45,853 nucleotides of DNA from a virus (taxonomy: Duplodnaviria; Heunggongvirae; Uroviricota; Caudoviricetes), in the IMG/VR virus record IMGVR_UViG_3300014890_000015, positions 1 to 45,853 of that record. One strand, written 5' to 3'. Positions 3,193 through 44,301 of this stretch are shown here, in pieces. The translations under genes were made by a program, and so were the position numbers. Position 1 is the first letter of the stretch; every line of letters begins with the position of its first letter. The notes under the pieces were generated by a model. It saw only the letters and a list, made by a program, of their open reading frames with translations, had not been told where the DNA came from and did no database searches.

Positions 3193-4402
3193 ACTTGTTA
3201 ACTTGAACCTGTGATACCACCGTCGAAAAATAGGAATAGGTATCGCCATAAACCAGGCTTGTGTCTTTTGCCGGAGGAACAATATGGCCATTAATGCCAA
3301 TGCTCACACTGATTGTTGAGATCAACGTCGCATCAACCAACAATCTGACGGAACTGGTAAAAATATCCTGGATTCGCAGCAGATTTATCGGGTGTCCGAC
3401 TTCAATAGAATTGATGTAATCAGCAACGTTTTGCTGCACAGCCATAGCAATACCCGCCGGATCAACATAATCATCAGATACAGTGTTCCAGGTGATTAGC
3501 ACCATGACGTTTTGTGATGACGGGATAACGAACGGCACCTGATAAACATCTGGCGAAACGGTTATTGAAACCGTGCGTTTTTCCACTGCCGCACCAGATG
3601 GATTGCTAACATCGTTGGTCAGTTTCGAAATATCCGGTACAGATTTGTAAATAGCATAAGCCACATCATACGGATCACCGCCACCAACAACCGCAACCCA
3701 TTTCCCCAGCGACGACTGCCGGAAAGAAATCAGGTTTTCTCGCACACCGCTTACTGATTTGAGCATCGCTTTAAAGCAATCCGGTGTTCCCTGCACACCA
3801 AACATGCCGGACTCCATGACTTCGGCGCGGTAAGATGCCCACGTTTGCGCCTCCTGACCTGGCATCCCTGCGGTAAGGTTCGTGCATTTTACAGGCTGAT
3901 CTTTGGGTACCGATGTAATGACCTGCGTTACGGTTCCTTCCGGTACAGCCCATGAGCCTGACGTTGTGGCCACACAGTAGACTGGCTCAGTCTGCCCGCT
4001 TTCCGGCACCACCGTATCGCGGGAAACTGCATACTGGTAGTTGCCGTCACCGACAACAAATCCTTTAGGGATACCAAACCCCGGCAACGCCTCAAACACC
4101 ACGTATACCGCCGTATTTGTACTTAATCCCTTCTGTGCTCCATAAATGTTTCCGAGTTGCATCAGTAACGGAATATTTGCGCCGTATGGGCTTACGGAGT
4201 TAATAAGGTCCACCCGCGCCTGGTCTATTAATGCCAGCGCCCCGACTGCCGTGCTGGCAAGGTCAGTAATAAGCCCCGCCGGAAGGTTGGCTGTATATCC
4301 AGGTACTTTTTCAGCAACTCTGATGATAAGATTTGCAAGCAAATCATTGGGTGGCGTAGGCTGCGCCCCCGCACTGGTCATAGTAATTGGTATTTCTGAC
4401 AT
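3176..4402 (-). CDS. baseplate J-like protein
   Basis: 408 aa in conserved V-W-J-I-fibre order of P2/Mu-type baseplates. Confidence 0.5.
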   Translation of the reverse strand: MSEIPITMTSAGAQPTPPNDLLANLIIRVAEKVPGYTANLPAGLITDLASTAVGALALIDQARVDLINSVSPYGANIPLLMQLGNIYGAQKGLSTNTAVYVVFEALPGFGIPKGFVVGDGNYQYAVSRDTVVPESGQTEPVYCVATTSGSWAVPEGTVTQVITSVPKDQPVKCTNLTAGMPGQEAQTWASYRAEVMESGMFGVQGTPDCFKAMLKSVSGVRENLISFRQSSLGKWVAVVGGGDPYDVAYAIYKSVPDISKLTNDVSNPSGAAVEKRTVSITVSPDVYQVPFVIPSSQNVMVLITWNTVSDDYVDPAGIAMAVQQNVADYINSIEVGHPINLLRIQDIFTSSVRLLVDATLISTISVSIGINGHIVPPAKDTSLVYGDTYSYFSTVVSQVQVNKYAISD

Positions 4403-25083: not shown

Positions 25084-25462
25084 TACCGCCTCCACCCCGC
25101 AGACGGGAGAACAGCCCGGATACCAGCGATGCGATATCCTGCTGGTGGATGAATGAGAGAATCTTCACCGACACCACCGATACCAGTACCGCGCAAAGCG
25201 CGTCGAGAGATGTGCTGTGGAGATTCAGTTTTTCAACCAGGTAAGACGCCATCACATCCGCCCCCAGCACGCCAACAATGAACGACACCAGAAAATGCGC
25301 TGCCACACGCCAGACAGAAATCTGCTGTGGTATCGTGGCCACAAACAGCGCCCCTGCGAATGCACCAAACACAATCCCGAAATCCGTTCCGGTAAACAGC
25401 CCGAATACCGTCGCCCCACCGAGCGCCGCAGCCGTGCCGGAACCGGACAAGGGTTCAGGCAT
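25073..25462 (-). CDS. holin-like membrane protein
   Basis: 130 aa, Gly/Ala-rich TM helices; AGGAGA RBS 6 nt upstream of ATG 25462; first gene of lysis cassette. Confidence 0.45.
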   Translation of the reverse strand: MPEPLSGSGTAAALGGATVFGLFTGTDFGIVFGAFAGALFVATIPQQISVWRVAAHFLVSFIVGVLGADVMASYLVEKLNLHSTSLDALCAVLVSVVSVKILSFIHQQDIASLVSGLFSRLRGGGGNVK

Positions 25463-25778
25463 ACTTTTTCTCCTGTAAATAAAAAAGGGCCTCCAGCGGC
25501 CCGGTAATTGACAACATCCCATCAAAAGCACCCGAAAATGCCTTTTGTGTGACGTTGTCTGATGGAATGAATAAAAAGTTAAGCGGATAAATAAGGGTTA
25601 CCAGAAATTAAGATTAATTTATATGTTTAAACAATATCTTTTTATTAGTAGTATTCATGTGCTCCGGAAGGAGAATGTAATTAAGTCAAACTTCATGGAC
25701 TTTGTCCCGCGGTCTTAATCCGACGACCGCGCTACTTTTTCACCCTCTCGCAAATTGCTATCTAAAGGACTTTGTCCC

Positions 25779-25810
25779 ACGAGTATTCCAGGATGCTCGT
25801 GTCTTTTTTT
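25779..25810 (+). terminator. plus-strand terminator-like hairpin (CACGAG...CTCGTG + T7)
   Basis: Stem-loop followed by TCTTTTTTT on the plus strand, antisense to late operon. Confidence 0.35.
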
Positions 25811-25826
25811 GTCCTGAGGAAGGAAT

Positions 25827-25852
25827 AAAAAAAACCGCCAGATATGGCGGTT
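25827..25852 (-). terminator. strong rho-independent terminator on late-operon strand
   Basis: AACCGCC-ATATCT-GGCGGTT followed by T8 on the minus strand. Confidence 0.55.
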
Positions 25853-26210
25853 GGTCAATGCATGAGATAAATCATTTTATTGTAATAAGAATCGAGGTAT
25901 CGGGTGCCTCCCGAAATATCCATCCCTACAACAGATATTGTGATTCCCCGCTAAACCACTATCTAAACCACCCTCGCACTGAGGAACACCTCTGCGGTGC
26001 TTTTACAACACCAGAATGATGCATCACCGACCCTGCCAGGAAATACAAAATCTCCACCGATAATGCACCATTCTGCTGCCGTAAAAAAATTAGCACTGTG
26101 ACTACAACCGACCTCCAATCATAGTCAGAGAACGGATTGTCTTTTTAAAACAACCCACCCCACGTAATAAAAAATACGCCAGTGCCACGATACAATAAGG
26201 CTTGTTTCTC

Positions 26211-26285
<75 letters not shown>

Positions 26286-26288
26286 ATA

Positions 26289-26364
<76 letters not shown>

Positions 26365-26600
26365 ATTGGTTCTTCAGGGGAGCGATATCACCGAGCAAAG
26401 AAGAGTTCCCCCTCAGAACCGTTTTCGATGATACGATTTAATATTCCAATCGCAACAACACTTTGCGTCAAGTTATGTAAATTATTTATATGTTTTTATT
26501 TTATGTGAATAATTCACTTTCACTTAAAATATATACAACAACATATAAATAAATTTATTTTGAAGGCGATGATTAAATGTCGTTTCTGATATCACACCAC

Positions 26601-26714: not shown

Positions 26715-27257
26715 TCAAACTATTTTTTGAGCAAATGATTCTCGCATGGGAATATATAGGGCATACTCAGCAACAGCCAACCAATTAGCAATTCGCTTTT
26801 CGCATGTGCTAAAACACCACTCAGGATGTGCATCATTCAGCAATTCAGCCATTTTGCGCTTAGTCATCCCCCTCCCTTCATATCGTTGCCGGAGGATACA
26901 AATCAATCCTGGGTGTTCTGCCAGCACTTCACTAATCACACGATCAATGCATAACGCCTCTGCATCAGTACAATGCACCAGCCAGCTTTTTTGCTTGCCG
27001 TTGATCATATCCCGCAAAAAAGCCTCAAGTTCAGGTTTGTCCAGACCTGCTTTTTTCATCCTCCGGAGCGCCTCGTTAATTGCCGTTTTTGTCAGCTTTT
27101 TAGAGGTCAGCAACTGGTTGAACATATTTCCCGTCTTACCGCCGCCAATATACGACCAGCGCCCCCACATGCGCAGTTTTCCCTGAATCCAGACACTTTC
27201 CAGCGTGGTGAGACGAAGGTGTTCCCCGCTTTTGCCTGTATTTGTTGGGTAAATCAT
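26715..27257 (-). CDS. late-gene antitermination protein Q-like
   Basis: 180 aa from ATG 27257 (ATGA overlap with upstream gene); lambdoid position before late promoter, tRNAs and lysis genes. Confidence 0.6.
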   Translation of the reverse strand: MIYPTNTGKSGEHLRLTTLESVWIQGKLRMWGRWSYIGGGKTGNMFNQLLTSKKLTKTAINEALRRMKKAGLDKPELEAFLRDMINGKQKSWLVHCTDAEALCIDRVISEVLAEHPGLICILRQRYEGRGMTKRKMAELLNDAHPEWCFSTCEKRIANWLAVAEYALYIPMRESFAQKIV

Positions 27258-29497: not shown

Positions 29498-29653
29498 TTA
29501 CTTCTCAGATACGTAGTCCACGAAGACAGCGACCTCCGTCTGGCCGGTTCGGATTCGTACCTCGCAGAGGTCTTTCCTCGTTACCAGTGCCGTCACTATG
29601 ACGGTTAAACAGATGACGATCAGGGCGATTAACATCGCCTTTTGCTGCTTCAT
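29498..29653 (-). CDS. hok: Hok/Gef-family type I toxin
   Basis: 51 aa MKQQKAMLIALIVICLTVIVTALVTRKDLCEVRIRTGQTEVAVF... ; AAGGAG RBS; upstream in-frame/overlapping leader consistent with mok-like region. Confidence 0.8.
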   Translation of the reverse strand: MKQQKAMLIALIVICLTVIVTALVTRKDLCEVRIRTGQTEVAVFVDYVSEK

Positions 29654-29992
29654 AGCCTGCTTCTCCTTGCCTTTCGGCACGTAAGAGGCTAACCTGATGT
29701 TGTCATGCATAGGGAGCCTCAGATTAATGTTAAGCGTCTTGCCGGACGCGTAATGTTAACTGGGGCTTTTCTCTGCCTGCCTTACAGTGGCATGCCCGAG
29801 GCAGACAGCCTCAAGCACCCGCAGCAATCTTACCGACACCGATAAGAAAACGCTATTTTTTATTGCCAGCACCTTCTATCCAGGCTAATTTATCTGCGTC
29901 AGAACGGCGCAATGCGCTCGCCTGAGATACGTTTACTTGCCATGGTAACAACAGATAACGGCAATTGTTGTTTCTGTTTTGTTTCCTTCAAA

Positions 29993-43925: not shown

Positions 43926-44120
43926 ATGCGGTATGAAAAAGTCAAAGCATGTCCGTTTTGTGGTTGTCCATCAGTAACGGTGAAAGCTATTTCAGGATAT
44001 TACCGCGCGAAGTGTAACGGATGCGAATCCCGAACCGGCTATGGTGGAAGTGAAAAAGAAGCACTCGAACGATGGAATAAACGAACCACTGGAAATAATA
44101 ATGGAGGTGTTCATGTATAA
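43926..44120 (+). CDS. Lar-family restriction alleviation protein
   Basis: MRYEKVKACPFCGC...C..C...ERWNKR zinc-ribbon pattern typical of Lar/RalR. Confidence 0.55.
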   Translation: MRYEKVKACPFCGCPSVTVKAISGYYRAKCNGCESRTGYGGSEKEALERWNKRTTGNNNGGVHV

Positions 44121-44301
44121 AATTACCGCCACTATTGAAAAGGAAGGTGGCACTCCTACTAACTGGACAAGGTACTCAAAAACAAAGTTAACCAAATCGG
44201 AATGCGAAAAAATGCTCTCGGGGAAAAAAGAAGCAGGCGTTTCCAGAGAGCAGAAAGTAAAGCTGATAAATTTTAATTGCGAGAAACTTCTGCCCTCGTG
44301 A
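44113..44301 (+). CDS. hypothetical small protein (62 aa)
   Basis: GGAGGTG RBS before ATG 44113. Confidence 0.4.
   Translation: MYKITATIEKEGGTPTNWTRYSKTKLTKSECEKMLSGKKEAGVSREQKVKLINFNCEKLLPS

What the first reader, a model, noticed from the sequence alone, without database searches (positions are those of the whole stretch)
25463..26210. About 750 bp of structured, AT-rich non-coding DNA inside the late operon
Between the tRNAs and the holin start there is no convincing ORF on the transcribed strand, unusual for a phage. The segment has a strong minus-strand terminator (25827..25852), a plus-strand terminator (25779..25810), and two copies of the palindromic motif GGACTTTGTCCC (25697..25708 and 25767..25778), each followed by a hairpin. 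This is where other lambdoid phages carry morons, so it may be a deleted cargo site, or an sRNA or cis-regulatory locus.
Basis: seen in the sequence. Interest (0 to 1): 0.5.

Follow-up and report, generated by a model that had tools for sequence, protein, structure and literature searches.

The report
Convergent small-RNA genes before prophage lysis genes
The "empty" 750 bp between the phage tRNAs and the holin gene most likely holds two conserved, structured small-RNA genes facing each other, a layout already known from Shiga-toxin phages, so it is a new variant of a known kind, not junk or a novelty.

Summary
The interval has no credible ORF, both terminators and both GGACTTTGTCCC copies sit at the stated coordinates, and GC is modestly low.

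The interval is not a scar. It is conserved in about 400 E. coli genomes and about 90 viral contigs, with base-pair covariation.

On the late-operon (minus) strand, a roughly 390-nt RNA follows tRNA-Gly:
- a four-way junction;
- a 34-bp G·U-rich hairpin that folds only on this strand;
- a 196-nt domain (26019→25824) ending in the strong terminator.

This 196-nt domain is a divergent relative of the prophage sRNA STnc100. Rfam scores it only 17.7 bits, below the cut-off of 47. A model built from this family finds genuine STnc100 at E = 4.5e-7 and 1.8e-4. Its tail resembles the anti-sRNAs AsxR and AgvB.

On the plus strand, a promoter (TTTAAA-N17-TAGTAT) is kept in 28 of 28 distinct relatives. 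It would drive an sRNA of about 80 or 150 nt. The two GGACTTTGTCCC motifs are mini-hairpins in front of its two tandem terminators.

Convergent sRNA pairs at this "moron" site are known (Tree 2014) and I confirmed one in phage 933W. Expression and function are untested.

The parts
26428..26471 (-). Promoter-like boxes upstream of the tRNA cluster. One candidate is TTGACG (26471-26466), N17, TGGAAT (26448-26443). An overlapping candidate is TTGCGA (26455-26450), N16, TATCAT (26433-26428). This is the probable start of the tRNA plus structured-RNA transcript in the lysogen.
   Evidence: The scan reports TTGCGA-16-TATCAT with 9 of 12 matches. The boxes are conserved among relatives that have a Thr-Gly cluster. 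Phage 933W has an annotated 'pT putative tRNA promoter' in the equivalent position. Its function here is inferred.
26211..26364 (-). tRNA-Thr(UGU) at 26289-26364 and tRNA-Gly(UCC) at 26211-26285. The structured RNA starts directly after tRNA-Gly.
   Evidence: ARAGORN and Rfam at 73.8 and 65.6 bits. In 57 of 60 related viral loci scanned, a tRNA-Gly(UCC) ends about 150-160 nt upstream of the hairpin loop.
26091..26187 (-). 5' domain, four-way junction. The closing helix H0 pairs 26180-26187 with 26091-26098. It encloses hairpins H1 (26162-26179), H2 (26132-26158) and H3 (26108-26128).
   Evidence: MFE fold of 25825-26210 on the minus strand has z = -6.84. There are compensatory changes in H0 (CG 29 / UA 4), H2 (AU 33 / GC 4) and H3 (GC 32 / AU 5).
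26002..26085 (-). Long hairpin H4, 34 bp including the tip helix, with 8 G·U pairs. It is a candidate RNase III or other processing site between the tRNA part and the sRNA part.
   Evidence: The minus strand folds at -44.6 kcal/mol (z = -6.55). The plus strand folds at -19.4 (z = -2.1). In 40 distinct sequences all variation is G·U to A-U or G-C, plus one double change, and 98% of cells are paired.
25824..26019 (-). STnc100-like sRNA domain. Its helices are the closing helix P2 (25987-25992 with 25894-25899), P3, P4, P5, the hairpin P6 UCGGGAGGCACCCGA (25900-25914), an AU-rich single strand, and the terminator.
   Evidence: Rfam STnc100 gives a full-length match at 17.7 bits, below the cut-off of 47. 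Model R1, built from 35 family members, finds genuine STnc100 in E2348/69 at 38.7 bits (E = 4.5e-7) and in 933W at 23.8 bits (E = 1.8e-4), at Rfam's own coordinates. Compensatory pairs: CG 27 / UA 12, GC 28 / AU 11, and CG 31 / UA 5 / UG 4.
25827..25893 (-). Tail of the late-sense RNA, resembling the anti-sRNAs AsxR and AgvB but lying in the sense orientation. An internal promoter-like site, CCGATA-N18-TAAAAT (25903-25874), could give a short species of about 45 nt.
   Evidence: Local alignment to 933W AsxR scores 30, against shuffles 17.2 +/- 2.1 (0 of 1000). Alignment to AgvB scores 33, against 15.0 +/- 2.1 (0 of 500). The Rfam AgvB model gives only 14.9 bits against a cut-off of 56. The E. 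coli W relative has CCGACA-18-TAAAAT with 9 of 12 matches.
25825..25852 (-). Intrinsic terminator of the late-sense RNA: stem 25852-25833 (8 bp, 5 G-C) followed by U8.
   Evidence: Scan. The stem is conserved in all 44 long-form relatives, with 98.6% of cells paired.
25626..25654 (+). Promoter of the plus-strand sRNA: TTTAAA (25626-25631), N17, TAGTAT (25649-25654). The predicted start is about 25660-25662.
   Evidence: The boxes and their spacing are present in 28 of 28 distinct relatives (67 loci), while the spacer sequence differs. It is a weak match to consensus (8 of 12). Promoter activity has not been shown.
25661..25810 (+). Candidate plus-strand sRNA. The short form would end about 25740, the long form at 25810. 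It contains a 5' hairpin CUCC-GGAA-GGAG (25662-25673), a variable single strand, mini-hairpin 1 with terminator 1, a linker, and mini-hairpin 2 with terminator 2. It is fully antisense to the late transcript just upstream of the holin.
   Evidence: On 34 distinct sequences, 95.7% of cells are paired, against 34-50% when partners are slid. 61 cells carry double changes, against 18.7 +/- 3.3 in shuffles. U·G wobbles form only on this strand (UG 22 / UA 6 and UG 20 / CG 10). The fold has z = -3.0 on the plus strand and -1.4 on the minus strand. No Rfam family matches.
25697..25740 (+). Module 1: motif copy 1, GGACTTTGTCCC (25697-25708), which forms the mini-hairpin GGAC-UUU-GUCC. It is followed by terminator hairpin GCGGUC/GACCGC (25709-25730) and U5 (25736-25740).
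   Evidence: Compensatory variants GCGGCU/AGCCGC and GCGGC/GCCGC occur in relatives (UA 21 / CG 13).
25767..25810 (+). Module 2: motif copy 2, GGACTTTGTCCC (25767-25778). It is followed by terminator stem 25778-25801 and U7 (25804-25810).
   Evidence: Relatives replace it with GGCAUUGCC plus ACGGACA/UGUCCGU, which keeps both hairpins through compensatory changes.
25481..25502 (-). Third terminator-like hairpin, GGGCCGCUGGAGGCCC plus U6, immediately upstream of the holin ribosome-binding site and start codon (ATG at 25462). It probably insulates the lysis genes from RNA polymerase that has not been modified by Q.
   Evidence: Scan. It is conserved in all 7 relatives aligned and is found in E. 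coli W. The insulating role is inferred.

Best explanation
The interval is a compact non-coding RNA island at the moron site of a lambdoid prophage. It holds a convergent pair of small-RNA genes.

(A) Late-operon (minus) strand. A structured RNA of about 390 nt is probably co-transcribed with tRNA-Thr and tRNA-Gly. In the lysogen it would start at a promoter just upstream of the tRNAs. During lytic growth it would start at pR'. It consists of a four-way junction, a 34-bp hairpin, and a 196-nt domain that is a divergent relative of the Hfq-associated prophage sRNA STnc100 (PasD, EcOnc13). Its AU-rich tail resembles the anti-sRNAs AsxR and AgvB, and it ends at the strong terminator at 25852-25825. 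Probably tRNA-processing enzymes, and RNase III or RNase E acting at the long hairpin, release the 3' part. That part would then act in trans as an Hfq-dependent base-pairing or sponge RNA.

(B) Plus strand. A conserved weak sigma-70 promoter at 25626-25654 drives an sRNA of about 80 nt that ends at terminator 1. Read-through to terminator 2 gives about 150 nt. The two GGACTTTGTCCC motifs are the mini-hairpins in front of these two tandem terminators. This RNA is perfectly complementary to the Q-dependent late transcript just upstream of the holin. It may therefore damp leaky lysis-gene expression in the lysogen, through antisense pairing or transcriptional interference. It may also act in trans, like PasA, PasC and AsxR, which occupy the same position in other prophages.

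Shown: conservation, strand-specific structure, covariation, relationship to STnc100, and the architecture. Inferred: transcription, processing, Hfq dependence, and targets.
For: - Conservation: 407 E. coli records match the interval (400 of 5426 genomes), and 83 match it full length at 75-90% identity, with nothing annotated there in nearly all. Segment 25691-26210 travels with the tRNAs even when the lysis cassette differs (essD/rrrD in L002 and L004).
- Minus-strand RNA: z = -6.84. The hairpin folds at -44.6 kcal/mol on the minus strand and -19.4 on the plus strand. On 40 distinct sequences, 97.6% of cells are paired, against 40-50% when slid. 18 pairs carry double changes, against 6.2 +/- 1.4 in shuffles (0 of 500).
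- STnc100 link: Rfam gives a full-length hit sharing the hairpin CGGGAGGCACCCG. The reciprocal model R1 finds genuine STnc100 at 38.7 bits (E = 4.5e-7) and 23.8 bits (E = 1.8e-4), at Rfam's own coordinates. Synteny and orientation match 933W and E2348/69. STnc100 lies 80 nt after a tRNA cluster in L116.
- Tail: similarity to AsxR and AgvB is beyond every shuffle.
- Plus-strand gene: the promoter boxes are kept in 28 of 28 distinct relatives. 95.7% of cells are paired, with compensatory changes and plus-strand-only U·G pairs.
- Precedent: convergent Hfq-bound sRNAs 3' of pR' have been reported in eight EHEC prophages (PMC4104026). PasA has 85-nt and 236-nt forms ending at two terminators, lies just upstream of the holin, and is antisense-oriented (PMC8550237 Table S6).
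Against: - There are no expression data for this locus or its relatives.
- The Rfam STnc100 score (17.7 bits) is far below the gathering score (47). R1's background reached 16.2 bits, so its hits on PasD (15.7-18.9 bits) carry no weight on their own.
- The sequences are closely related (88-89% mean identity). The shuffle control therefore overstates significance, and several helices never vary.
- The loop of the long hairpin was the search pattern, so its invariance in the viral set comes from how the sequences were collected.
- The plus-strand promoter is weak (8 of 12), and the tool's own scan did not call it.
- Eight long-form relatives lack the plus-strand modules altogether, so that gene is dispensable.
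- Similarity of the tail to AsxR and AgvB is weak or absent in most relatives. The Rfam AgvB model gives only 14.9 bits, no better than unrelated Hfq-type sRNA 3' ends.
Confidence: 0.7

Rival explanations
1. The interval is purely cis-acting insulation. The hairpins are only transcription terminators, possibly bidirectional, that stop transcription from the tRNA promoter and stray antisense transcription from reaching the lysis genes. The RNAs made would have no function of their own.
For: There are three to four intrinsic terminators in 400 bp, against 2.1 expected in 2 kb. One lies directly before the holin ribosome-binding site and is conserved in all relatives. A Q-dependent late operon needs such terminators.
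Against: Terminators account for about 100 of the 750 bp. They do not explain about 300 nt of conserved, covarying, strand-specific structure upstream of the minus terminator. They do not explain the relationship to the sRNA STnc100. They do not explain a promoter kept in 28 of 28 distinct relatives that faces the plus-strand terminators.
Confidence: 0.12
2. The interval is a decayed cargo or moron gene, or small proteins are encoded here. Relatives carry annotated hypothetical ORFs of 86, 105 and 132 aa over this stretch.
For: PGAP and phage annotators called CDSs here: WP_064226585.1 (132 aa), WP_000904532.1 (86 aa) and URC09393.1 (105 aa). Other phages carry cargo at this site, for example stx2 in 933W.
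Against: The annotated products agree only over about 31 residues and then diverge through frameshifts. One-base indels segregate among relatives. No ORF hits Pfam or PHROGs. The nucleotide changes preserve base pairs rather than codons. The 105-aa plus-strand ORF runs through the plus-strand terminator and the minus-strand terminator hairpin.
Confidence: 0.05
3. The GGACNNNGTCC palindromes are DNA sites for a dimeric DNA-binding protein, such as a regulator of late or lysis genes, rather than RNA hairpins.
For: There are two exact 12-bp near-palindromes 70 bp apart, unique in the window. Copy 1 is invariant in all 34 relatives.
Against: In relatives, copy 2 changes to GGCATTGCC. That keeps self-complementarity but not the sequence (GC 22 / UA 8; AU 24 / GC 10), and the central loop bases vary between T, G and A. 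This is the pattern of a hairpin, not of a protein-binding site. Each copy is part of a hairpin-plus-T-run module.
Confidence: 0.05
4. The 5' domain (junction plus long hairpin) is a cis-acting RNA that modifies RNA polymerase or ribosomes. One possibility is a put-like processive antiterminator that lets transcription pass the downstream terminators without Q.
For: It is a large conserved structure placed upstream of two strong terminators on the same strand.
Against: A Q-type antiterminator gene and a tR'-like terminator lie just upstream, so a second mechanism is not needed. There is no similarity to any Rfam cis-regulatory family. Short-form relatives combine the same 5' domain with a different 3' sRNA-like tail and terminator, which fits a carrier or processing role better.
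Confidence: 0.05

Closest known systems
STnc100 (Rfam RF02076), including its relatives PasD1/PasD2 of EPEC E2348/69 and EcOnc13 of EHEC
   Same: Both are prophage-encoded RNAs of about 170-200 nt in late-operon sense, lying between Q and the lysis genes. Both have a multi-stem body closed by one helix, the hairpin CGGGAGGCACCCG, an AU-rich single strand, and an intrinsic terminator. The model-to-sequence hits are reciprocal. STnc100 can also follow a tRNA cluster directly (L116).
   Different: This RNA is below Rfam's gathering score (17.7 against 47). It has no good promoter of its own at the 5' end. Instead it is fused to a 190-nt structured tRNA trailer. Its tail and terminator are replaced by an AsxR/AgvB-like sequence. 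The PasD seed UGUGAG is absent.
Convergent sRNA pairs at the moron site 3' of pR' in EHEC lambdoid prophages (Tree et al. 2014, PMC4104026), for example STnc100 facing AsxR in phage 933W
   Same: The position, the convergent orientation, and terminators a few bases apart are the same. The sense member is of STnc100 type. I verified this in 933W: STnc100 at 3778-3983 (+) and AsxR at 3985-4037 (-).
   Different: Here there is no protein cargo at all. The antisense-oriented member is not AsxR or AgvB (no Rfam hit). It is 80-150 nt long rather than 51-60 nt, and it has two tandem terminators.
Anti-sRNAs AsxR (RF02703) and AgvB (RF02702)
   Same: The tail of the late-sense RNA (25893→25827) can be aligned to the whole of AsxR or AgvB, including UAUCUCAUGC-AUUG-CC and the terminator position.
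   Different: It lies in the opposite orientation relative to the late operon and is attached to a longer RNA. Rfam's AgvB model scores 14.9 bits against a cut-off of 56. The similarity fades in most relatives.
PasA and PasC (EcOnc51/52) of EPEC and EHEC prophages
   Same: They are antisense-oriented sRNAs immediately upstream of the holin. PasA has a short major form (85 nt) and a long minor form (236 nt), from two successive terminators. The window also carries the PasA/PasC promoter boxes TTGACAACATCC-N14-GAAAATG at 25508-25540.
   Different: The RNA bodies show no detectable sequence similarity. Those boxes lie 120 bp upstream of the conserved TTTAAA-N17-TAGTAT promoter and are absent from the window's relatives.
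tRNA-operon spacer and trailer RNAs such as 3'ETS-leuZ of E. coli (my own knowledge; named only in a supplement table read)
   Same: A regulatory RNA would be released from the 3' trailer of a tRNA transcript by tRNA-processing nucleases.
   Different: The RNA here is much larger and more structured, is phage-borne, and its processing has not been demonstrated.

Membership tests
STnc100 (RF02076) | Score at or above Rfam's gathering threshold (47 bits) | tested here: not met
   17.7 bits, a full-length match to model positions 1-206 at 25823-26019 (-). For comparison, PasD1 and PasD2 score 37.7 and 41.4 bits, and genuine STnc100 scores 123.6 and 207.7 bits.
STnc100 (RF02076) | Reciprocal detection: a model of this family finds accepted STnc100 members | tested here: met
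   R1 scores 38.7 bits (E = 4.5e-7) on E2348/69 L010 671-858, and 23.8 bits (E = 1.8e-4) on 933W L213 3787-3981. Both coincide with Rfam's own hits. The highest other hit was 16.2 bits.
STnc100 (RF02076) | Shared architecture: a closing helix enclosing several hairpins, including CGGGAGGCACCCG, followed by a linker and an intrinsic terminator | tested here: met
   Alignments. The helices are kept with compensatory changes within the family (CG 27 / UA 12 in the closing helix).
STnc100 (RF02076) | Location in a lambdoid prophage between Q and the lysis genes, in late-operon sense | tested here: met
   for the window. for the reference loci.
STnc100 (RF02076) | Expressed as a discrete, Hfq-associated RNA | not testable with these tools
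   No transcriptome or Hfq data exist for this locus. The literature itself says the role of STnc100 remains unclear (PMC12370729).
PasD1/PasD2 | Sequence and structure match to PasD, and the seed UGUGAG upstream of the terminator | tested here: not met
   R1 scores 15.7 and 18.9 bits on PasD, within background. The window tail reads UCUCAUGCAUUGACC and has no UGUGAG.
Anti-sRNAs AsxR/AgvB (RF02703/RF02702) | Score at or above the Rfam gathering threshold | tested here: not met
   AgvB scores 14.9 bits against a cut-off of 56 at 25827-25888 (-). AsxR is not listed at E up to 10.
Anti-sRNAs AsxR/AgvB (RF02703/RF02702) | Conserved 3' region of about 42 nt with a variable 5' end | tested here: inconclusive
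   The window tail aligns at 27 of 33 positions to AsxR (score 30 against 17.2 +/- 2.1), and over 55 nt to AgvB (33 against 15.0 +/- 2.1). Most relatives score at the level of shuffles.
Anti-sRNAs AsxR/AgvB (RF02703/RF02702) | A separate 51-60 nt gene, antisense to the late transcript and convergent with the sense sRNA | tested here: not met
   The similar stretch is on the late-sense strand and continuous with the STnc100-like body. The plus-strand gene, which has the right orientation, shows no similarity (score 16; no Rfam hit).
Convergent sRNA pair at the moron site (Tree 2014) | Two sRNA genes facing each other downstream of Q and pR', upstream of the lysis genes | tested here: met
   The minus-strand terminator is at 25852-25825 and the plus-strand terminators at 25709-25740 and 25778-25810. 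Both units are conserved with structure. The reference case was verified in 933W.
Convergent sRNA pair at the moron site (Tree 2014) | Both RNAs bound by Hfq in vivo | not testable with these tools
   This requires CLIP or RIL-seq on a strain that carries the prophage.
PasA/PasC | Sequence similarity of the RNA body | tested here: not met
   blastn with word size 7 finds only the 12-mer TTGACAACATCC. MAFFT does not align the regions. All but one of the other viral-contig matches to the two-box pattern are near-identical PasA/PasC loci.
IpeX (nmpC 3'UTR of DLP12) | Sequence similarity to the K-12 DLP12 region between quuD and essD | tested here: not met
   blastn against NC_000913 570000-580000 finds no match with E below 1.

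The most novel reading that the evidence does not exclude
The late-sense RNA is a single modular non-coding operon. It would run tRNA-Thr, tRNA-Gly, a four-way junction, an RNase III-type hairpin, an STnc100 body, and an anti-sRNA-like tail. Processing would release several regulators from one transcript, and the promoter of an ancestral STnc100 gene would have been replaced by a tRNA-linked processing platform. The unannotated plus-strand sRNA would be a cis-antisense guard that keeps the holin silent in the lysogen. Both the 190-nt 5' domain and the plus-strand RNA would then be new RNA families.
Probability: 0.25. Interest if true: 0.6.

Novelty: new variant of a known kind. Interest (0 to 1): 0.4.

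Why it matters
Prophage sRNAs at the moron site of Shiga-toxin and EPEC phages rewire host regulation. AsxR and AgvB sponge the core sRNAs FnrS and GcvB. The Pas sRNAs target virulence genes.

This locus shows the same convergent sRNA layout in tRNA-carrying prophages of commensal and laboratory E. coli such as strain W, with no protein cargo. Three of its pieces are missed by current annotation:
- a sub-threshold relative of STnc100;
- a 190-nt structured tRNA trailer with a long double-stranded hairpin;
- an sRNA antisense to the holin leader.

If they are expressed, they add members to a poorly understood class whose best-known family, STnc100, still has no established function. They would also offer a simple system for asking how such RNAs are made from tRNA transcripts, and whether the antisense partner restrains lysis genes.

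On the practical side, several "hypothetical proteins" annotated over this stretch in RefSeq and GenBank are probably spurious.

Tried and rejected
- Rfam over the whole window at gathering thresholds finds nothing in the gap, only the two tRNAs, RalA and sok. Permissive scans give only sub-threshold hits. The microRNA-precursor hits at 26000-26088 reflect hairpin shape only.
- Pseudogene of the 132-aa ORF annotated in ETEC1734 was rejected. The products diverge by frameshift after about 31 residues and have no family hits.
- IpeX of DLP12 shows no similarity.
- Homology of the plus-strand RNA to PasA or PasC was rejected for the RNA body. The shared TTGACAACATCC-N14-GAAAATG boxes at 25508-25540 are absent from the window's own relatives. 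Elsewhere they occur almost only in near-identical PasA/PasC loci. I keep them as a lead only.
- A sigma-70 promoter directly in front of the STnc100-like domain: no acceptable -35 box was seen by eye, so processing or the internal CCGATA-N18-TAAAAT site is proposed instead.
- The genome-contig scan with the hairpin-loop 20-mer gave 5 hits. Only Escherichia ruysiae is a real relative (90.8% identity). The other four show no further similarity and are chance matches. Two viral hits (L059, L089) are also chance matches.
- A literature search for the exact motifs found nothing relevant.
- RNAalifold on the full alignment gave a different long-range pairing for the 3' domain. I replaced it with the STnc100-like structure, which I tested explicitly.
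- Source organism: no complete E. coli genome exceeds about 90% identity over the locus, so the host remains unidentified. It is Escherichia-like.
Full report
**Context**

The window is a lambdoid prophage of Escherichia type. Rfam finds RalA at 44119-44297 and a sok-like RNA at 29648-29820.

Around the finding the late operon runs on the minus strand:
- a Q-like antiterminator at 26715-27251 (phrog_753, E = 6.7e-78);
- a tR'-like terminator at 26634-26609;
- tRNA-Thr(UGU) at 26364-26289 and tRNA-Gly(UCC) at 26285-26211;
- the 748-bp gap;
- two holins (25462-25073 and 25095-24808) and an M15 endolysin (24811-24428).

**Checking the observation**

- The consensus scan finds the minus-strand terminator (stem 25852-25833 plus T8) and the plus-strand terminator (stem 25778-25801 plus T7).
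- It also finds a third, minus-strand terminator at 25502-25487, directly before the holin ribosome-binding site.
- GGACTTTGTCCC occurs exactly at 25697-25708 and 25767-25778 and nowhere else. With up to one mismatch, 0.23 matches are expected per window.
- The gap ORFs are 45-51 aa on the minus strand and 105 aa on the plus strand. None hits Pfam or PHROGs.
- GC is 41.6% against 47.9% for the window. Only 25463-25690 is strongly AT-rich.

**Conservation and mosaic structure**

The interval matches 407 E. coli records, in 400 of 5426 complete genomes. 83 of them cover it full length at 75-90% identity, nearly always with no annotation. It also occurs in phage vB_EcoS-683R6 and in the LT-IIb prophage.

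Matches break at window positions of about 25691, 25823 and 26003. The part 25691-26210 stays with the tRNAs even where the lysis cassette is of the essD/rrrD type. The first roughly 100 bp stay with the holin.

Three relatives carry "hypothetical protein" annotations over the stretch. Their products agree only for about 31 residues and then diverge by frameshift. One-base indels segregate among relatives. The region is therefore conserved, but not as a coding sequence.

**The late-sense (minus-strand) RNA**

The 386 nt from the end of tRNA-Gly to the terminator fold with z = -6.84.

An exact 20-mer from the loop of the long hairpin retrieved 93 viral contigs. These gave 64 distinct 500-nt segments:
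- 44 are "long form", like the window;
- 15 are "short form", with the same 5' part and a different tail of about 75 nt plus a terminator;
- two are unrelated chance matches.

In 57 of 60 loci scanned, a tRNA-Gly(UCC) ends about 150-160 nt upstream of the loop. The tRNAs before it vary: Thr-Gly, Met-Lys-Thr-Gly, Met-Lys-Lys-Gly, or Gly alone.

I wrote a 12-helix structure and counted it on the 44-sequence alignment.
- 97.6% of cells are paired, against 40-50% when partners are slid.
- 18 pairs carry double changes, against 6.2 +/- 1.4 in shuffles (0 of 500).
- The sequences are close relatives (89% identity), so these figures overstate significance. The individual compensatory pairs are nevertheless clear: CG 27 / UA 12, GC 28 / AU 11, CG 31 / UA 5 / UG 4, GC 32 / AU 5, AU 33 / GC 4 and CG 29 / UA 4.

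The 5' domain has two parts:
- a four-way junction (26091-26187);
- a 34-bp hairpin (26002-26085) with eight G·U pairs.

The hairpin folds at -44.6 kcal/mol on the minus strand (z = -6.55) and only -19.4 on the plus strand. Its variation is almost entirely G·U to A-U or G-C. This is an RNA-level feature of the transcribed strand. The loop was the search pattern, so its invariance in the viral set proves nothing. It is, however, also invariant in the seven sequences found by BLAST.

**Relationship to STnc100**

Rfam's permissive scan gave a full-length match of 25823-26019 (-) to STnc100. The score was 17.7 bits, well below the gathering score of 47. The hairpin CGGGAGGCACCCG is identical, and the closing helix lies in the same place with compensatory differences.

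A 2026 preprint (10.64898/2026.05.13.724894) and Pearl Mizrahi et al. 2021 (PMC8550237) describe the prophage sRNAs PasA, PasC and PasD of EPEC E2348/69. They link PasD to STnc100.

I fetched those loci.
- PasD1 and PasD2 score 37.7 and 41.4 bits against STnc100.
- A genuine STnc100 scores 123.6 bits.
- All lie in late sense between Q and the holin.

I then built a covariance model (R1: 196 positions, 36 base pairs) from 35 members of the window's family.
- Searched with filters off, R1 found the genuine STnc100 of E2348/69 at 38.7 bits (E = 4.5e-7).
- It found the STnc100 of phage 933W at 23.8 bits (E = 1.8e-4).
- Both hits coincide with Rfam's own coordinates.
- Its hits on PasD (15.7-18.9 bits) are no better than the best background hit (16.2 bits).

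I conclude that 26019→25824 is a divergent relative of STnc100. Rfam's threshold misses it.

The literature gives no established function for STnc100. It lies 75 nt downstream of stx2 and has been detected in outer-membrane vesicles (PMC12370729).

**The tail**

After the closing helix the RNA continues with 41 AU-rich unpaired nucleotides and then the terminator. This tail (25893→25827) aligns to the anti-sRNA AsxR of 933W at 27 of 33 positions. The score is 30, against 17.2 +/- 2.1 for shuffles (0 of 1000). It aligns to AgvB over 55 nt, with score 33 against 15.0 +/- 2.1 (0 of 500).

Three points limit this similarity:
- it lies in the sense orientation, whereas AsxR and AgvB are antisense to the late operon;
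- it is weak or absent in most relatives;
- Rfam's AgvB model gives only 14.9 bits.

I treat it as a resemblance that may reflect module exchange, not as family membership.

A promoter-like site, CCGA(T/C)A-N18-TAAAAT, lies at 25903-25874 and scores 9 of 12 in E. coli W. It could produce a short species of about 45 nt.

No acceptable -35 box precedes the STnc100-like domain. I therefore infer that the domain is made by processing a longer transcript. That transcript would start at promoter-like boxes upstream of the tRNAs (26471-26428). The equivalent site in 933W is annotated "pT".

**The plus-strand gene**

The two GGACTTTGTCCC copies belong to two tandem modules. Each is a mini-hairpin (GGAC-UUU-GUCC) followed by a larger hairpin and a U-run.
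- In relatives, module 2 becomes GGCAUUGCC plus ACGGACA/UGUCCGU, which keeps both hairpins.
- The stem of module 1 switches from GCGGUC/GACCGC to GCGGCU/AGCCGC.

Upstream, TTTAAA-N17-TAGTAT (25626-25654) is present in all 28 distinct relatives (67 loci), although the spacer sequences differ. It is followed by a 5' hairpin that shows compensatory changes.

On 34 distinct sequences the five-helix structure behaves as follows.
- 95.7% of cells are paired, against 34-50% when slid.
- 61 cells carry double changes, against 18.7 +/- 3.3 in shuffles.
- U·G wobbles exist only on the plus strand (UG 22 / UA 6 and UG 20 / CG 10).

The predicted RNA starts near 25661. It ends near 25740 (about 80 nt) or at 25810 (about 150 nt). 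The single-stranded stretch between the 5' hairpin and module 1 differs between the window and its relatives, as a seed region might.

No Rfam family matches this RNA. Its body resembles neither PasA/PasC nor AsxR.

The promoter is weak (8 of 12). Eight long-form relatives lack the cassette altogether.

**Comparison with what is known**

Tree et al. 2014 (PMC4104026) reported convergent Hfq-bound sRNA genes 3' of pR', at the moron site, in eight EHEC prophages.

I verified the archetype in phage 933W. The order there is Q, pR', terminators, pT, three tRNAs, stx2AB, STnc100 at 3778-3983 (+) facing AsxR at 3985-4037 (-), esterase, and holin. Another viral contig has STnc100 facing AgvB. In another, STnc100 lies 80 nt after a tRNA cluster.

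The window has the same plan without any protein cargo. Its differences are:
- the sense member is a sub-threshold STnc100 relative fused to a structured tRNA trailer;
- that member carries an anti-sRNA-like tail;
- the antisense member belongs to an undescribed family with two terminators. PasA is similar in that respect, with 85-nt and 236-nt forms.

**Mechanism**

Shown:
- two conserved, strand-specific, structured RNA units with terminators facing each other;
- the relationship of one of them to STnc100.

Inferred:
- In the lysogen, the tRNA promoter drives tRNA-Thr, tRNA-Gly and the structured RNA up to the terminator at 25852-25825.
- tRNA-processing enzymes, and RNase III or RNase E acting at the hairpin, release an Hfq-binding sRNA that acts in trans.
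- The plus-strand sRNA is complementary to the Q-dependent late transcript just upstream of the holin. Together with the terminator at 25502-25487, it helps keep the lysis genes silent until Q acts. It may also have trans targets.

**Verdict**

The sRNA reading is supported, and the deleted-cargo reading is not. The locus is a new variant of a known kind. Interest is moderate (0.4). A specialist would recognise the layout at once. The structured tRNA trailer with its long hairpin, the chimeric STnc100/anti-sRNA-like RNA, and the unannotated antisense sRNA are nevertheless worth a Northern blot.

Noticed in passing
window 25508-25540 (+): TTGACAACATCC-N14-GAAAATG matches both boxes and the spacing of the PasA/PasC promoter region of E2348/69, where TTGACA lies 35 nt upstream of the mapped PasA and PasC 5' ends. 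It points away from the holin, as it does there. The window's own relatives lack it. In viral contigs all but one of the other matches (L163) are near-identical PasA/PasC loci.
   Followed up: partly
window 25555-25577 and 25809-25831 (+): An imperfect 23-nt direct repeat (78% identity: TTGTCTGATGGAATGAATAAAAA and TTGTCCTGAGGAAGGAATAAAAA) brackets the whole plus-strand sRNA cassette, with a spacing of 254 bp. Some relatives lack the cassette. The repeat could mark an insertion, or it could be chance.
   Followed up: no
window 25481-25502 (-): A terminator-like hairpin plus U6 sits directly before the holin ribosome-binding site inside the late operon. It is conserved in every relative aligned.
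   Followed up: partly
window 44119-44297 (-) and 29648-29820 (-): RalA antitoxin RNA of the Rac-type RalR/RalA system (216.7 bits) and a sok-like antitoxin RNA (109.6 bits). These are two type I toxin-antitoxin RNAs in the same prophage.
   Followed up: no
L006 3233-3631 (-), L005 3334-3594 (-), L002 3233-3550 (+): Database CDS annotations WP_064226585.1 (132 aa), WP_000904532.1 (86 aa) and URC09393.1 (105 aa) lie over the structured RNA in relatives. They are probably spurious.
   Followed up: partly
L003 (KU052038.1, phage SerU-LTIIb) 1461-1852 and 3001-3745: The LT-IIb prophage carries the unit tRNA-Gly, structured RNA, holin1 twice in tandem. The second copy has a different four-way-junction sequence but the same long hairpin, with one compensatory AU to GC change.
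   Followed up: partly
L005, L027, L034 and other 'short form' loci: 15 distinct relatives keep the tRNA trailer and the long hairpin but replace the STnc100-like domain with an unrelated tail of about 75 nt plus a terminator. This suggests the 5' domain is a carrier onto which different sRNA 3' modules are swapped.
   Followed up: partly
L042 3703-4202 (-): A recombinant whose breakpoint lies in the loop of the long hairpin. The 5' arm and the tRNAs are replaced by unrelated sequence, while the 3' arm and the STnc100-like domain remain.
   Followed up: no
L004 6370-7520 (-) and L002 6091-6741 (-): In relatives, an S8-family anti-phage peptidase (IteS) lies a few genes upstream of Q, next to these tRNA clusters. 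I did not check whether the window carries it.
   Followed up: no
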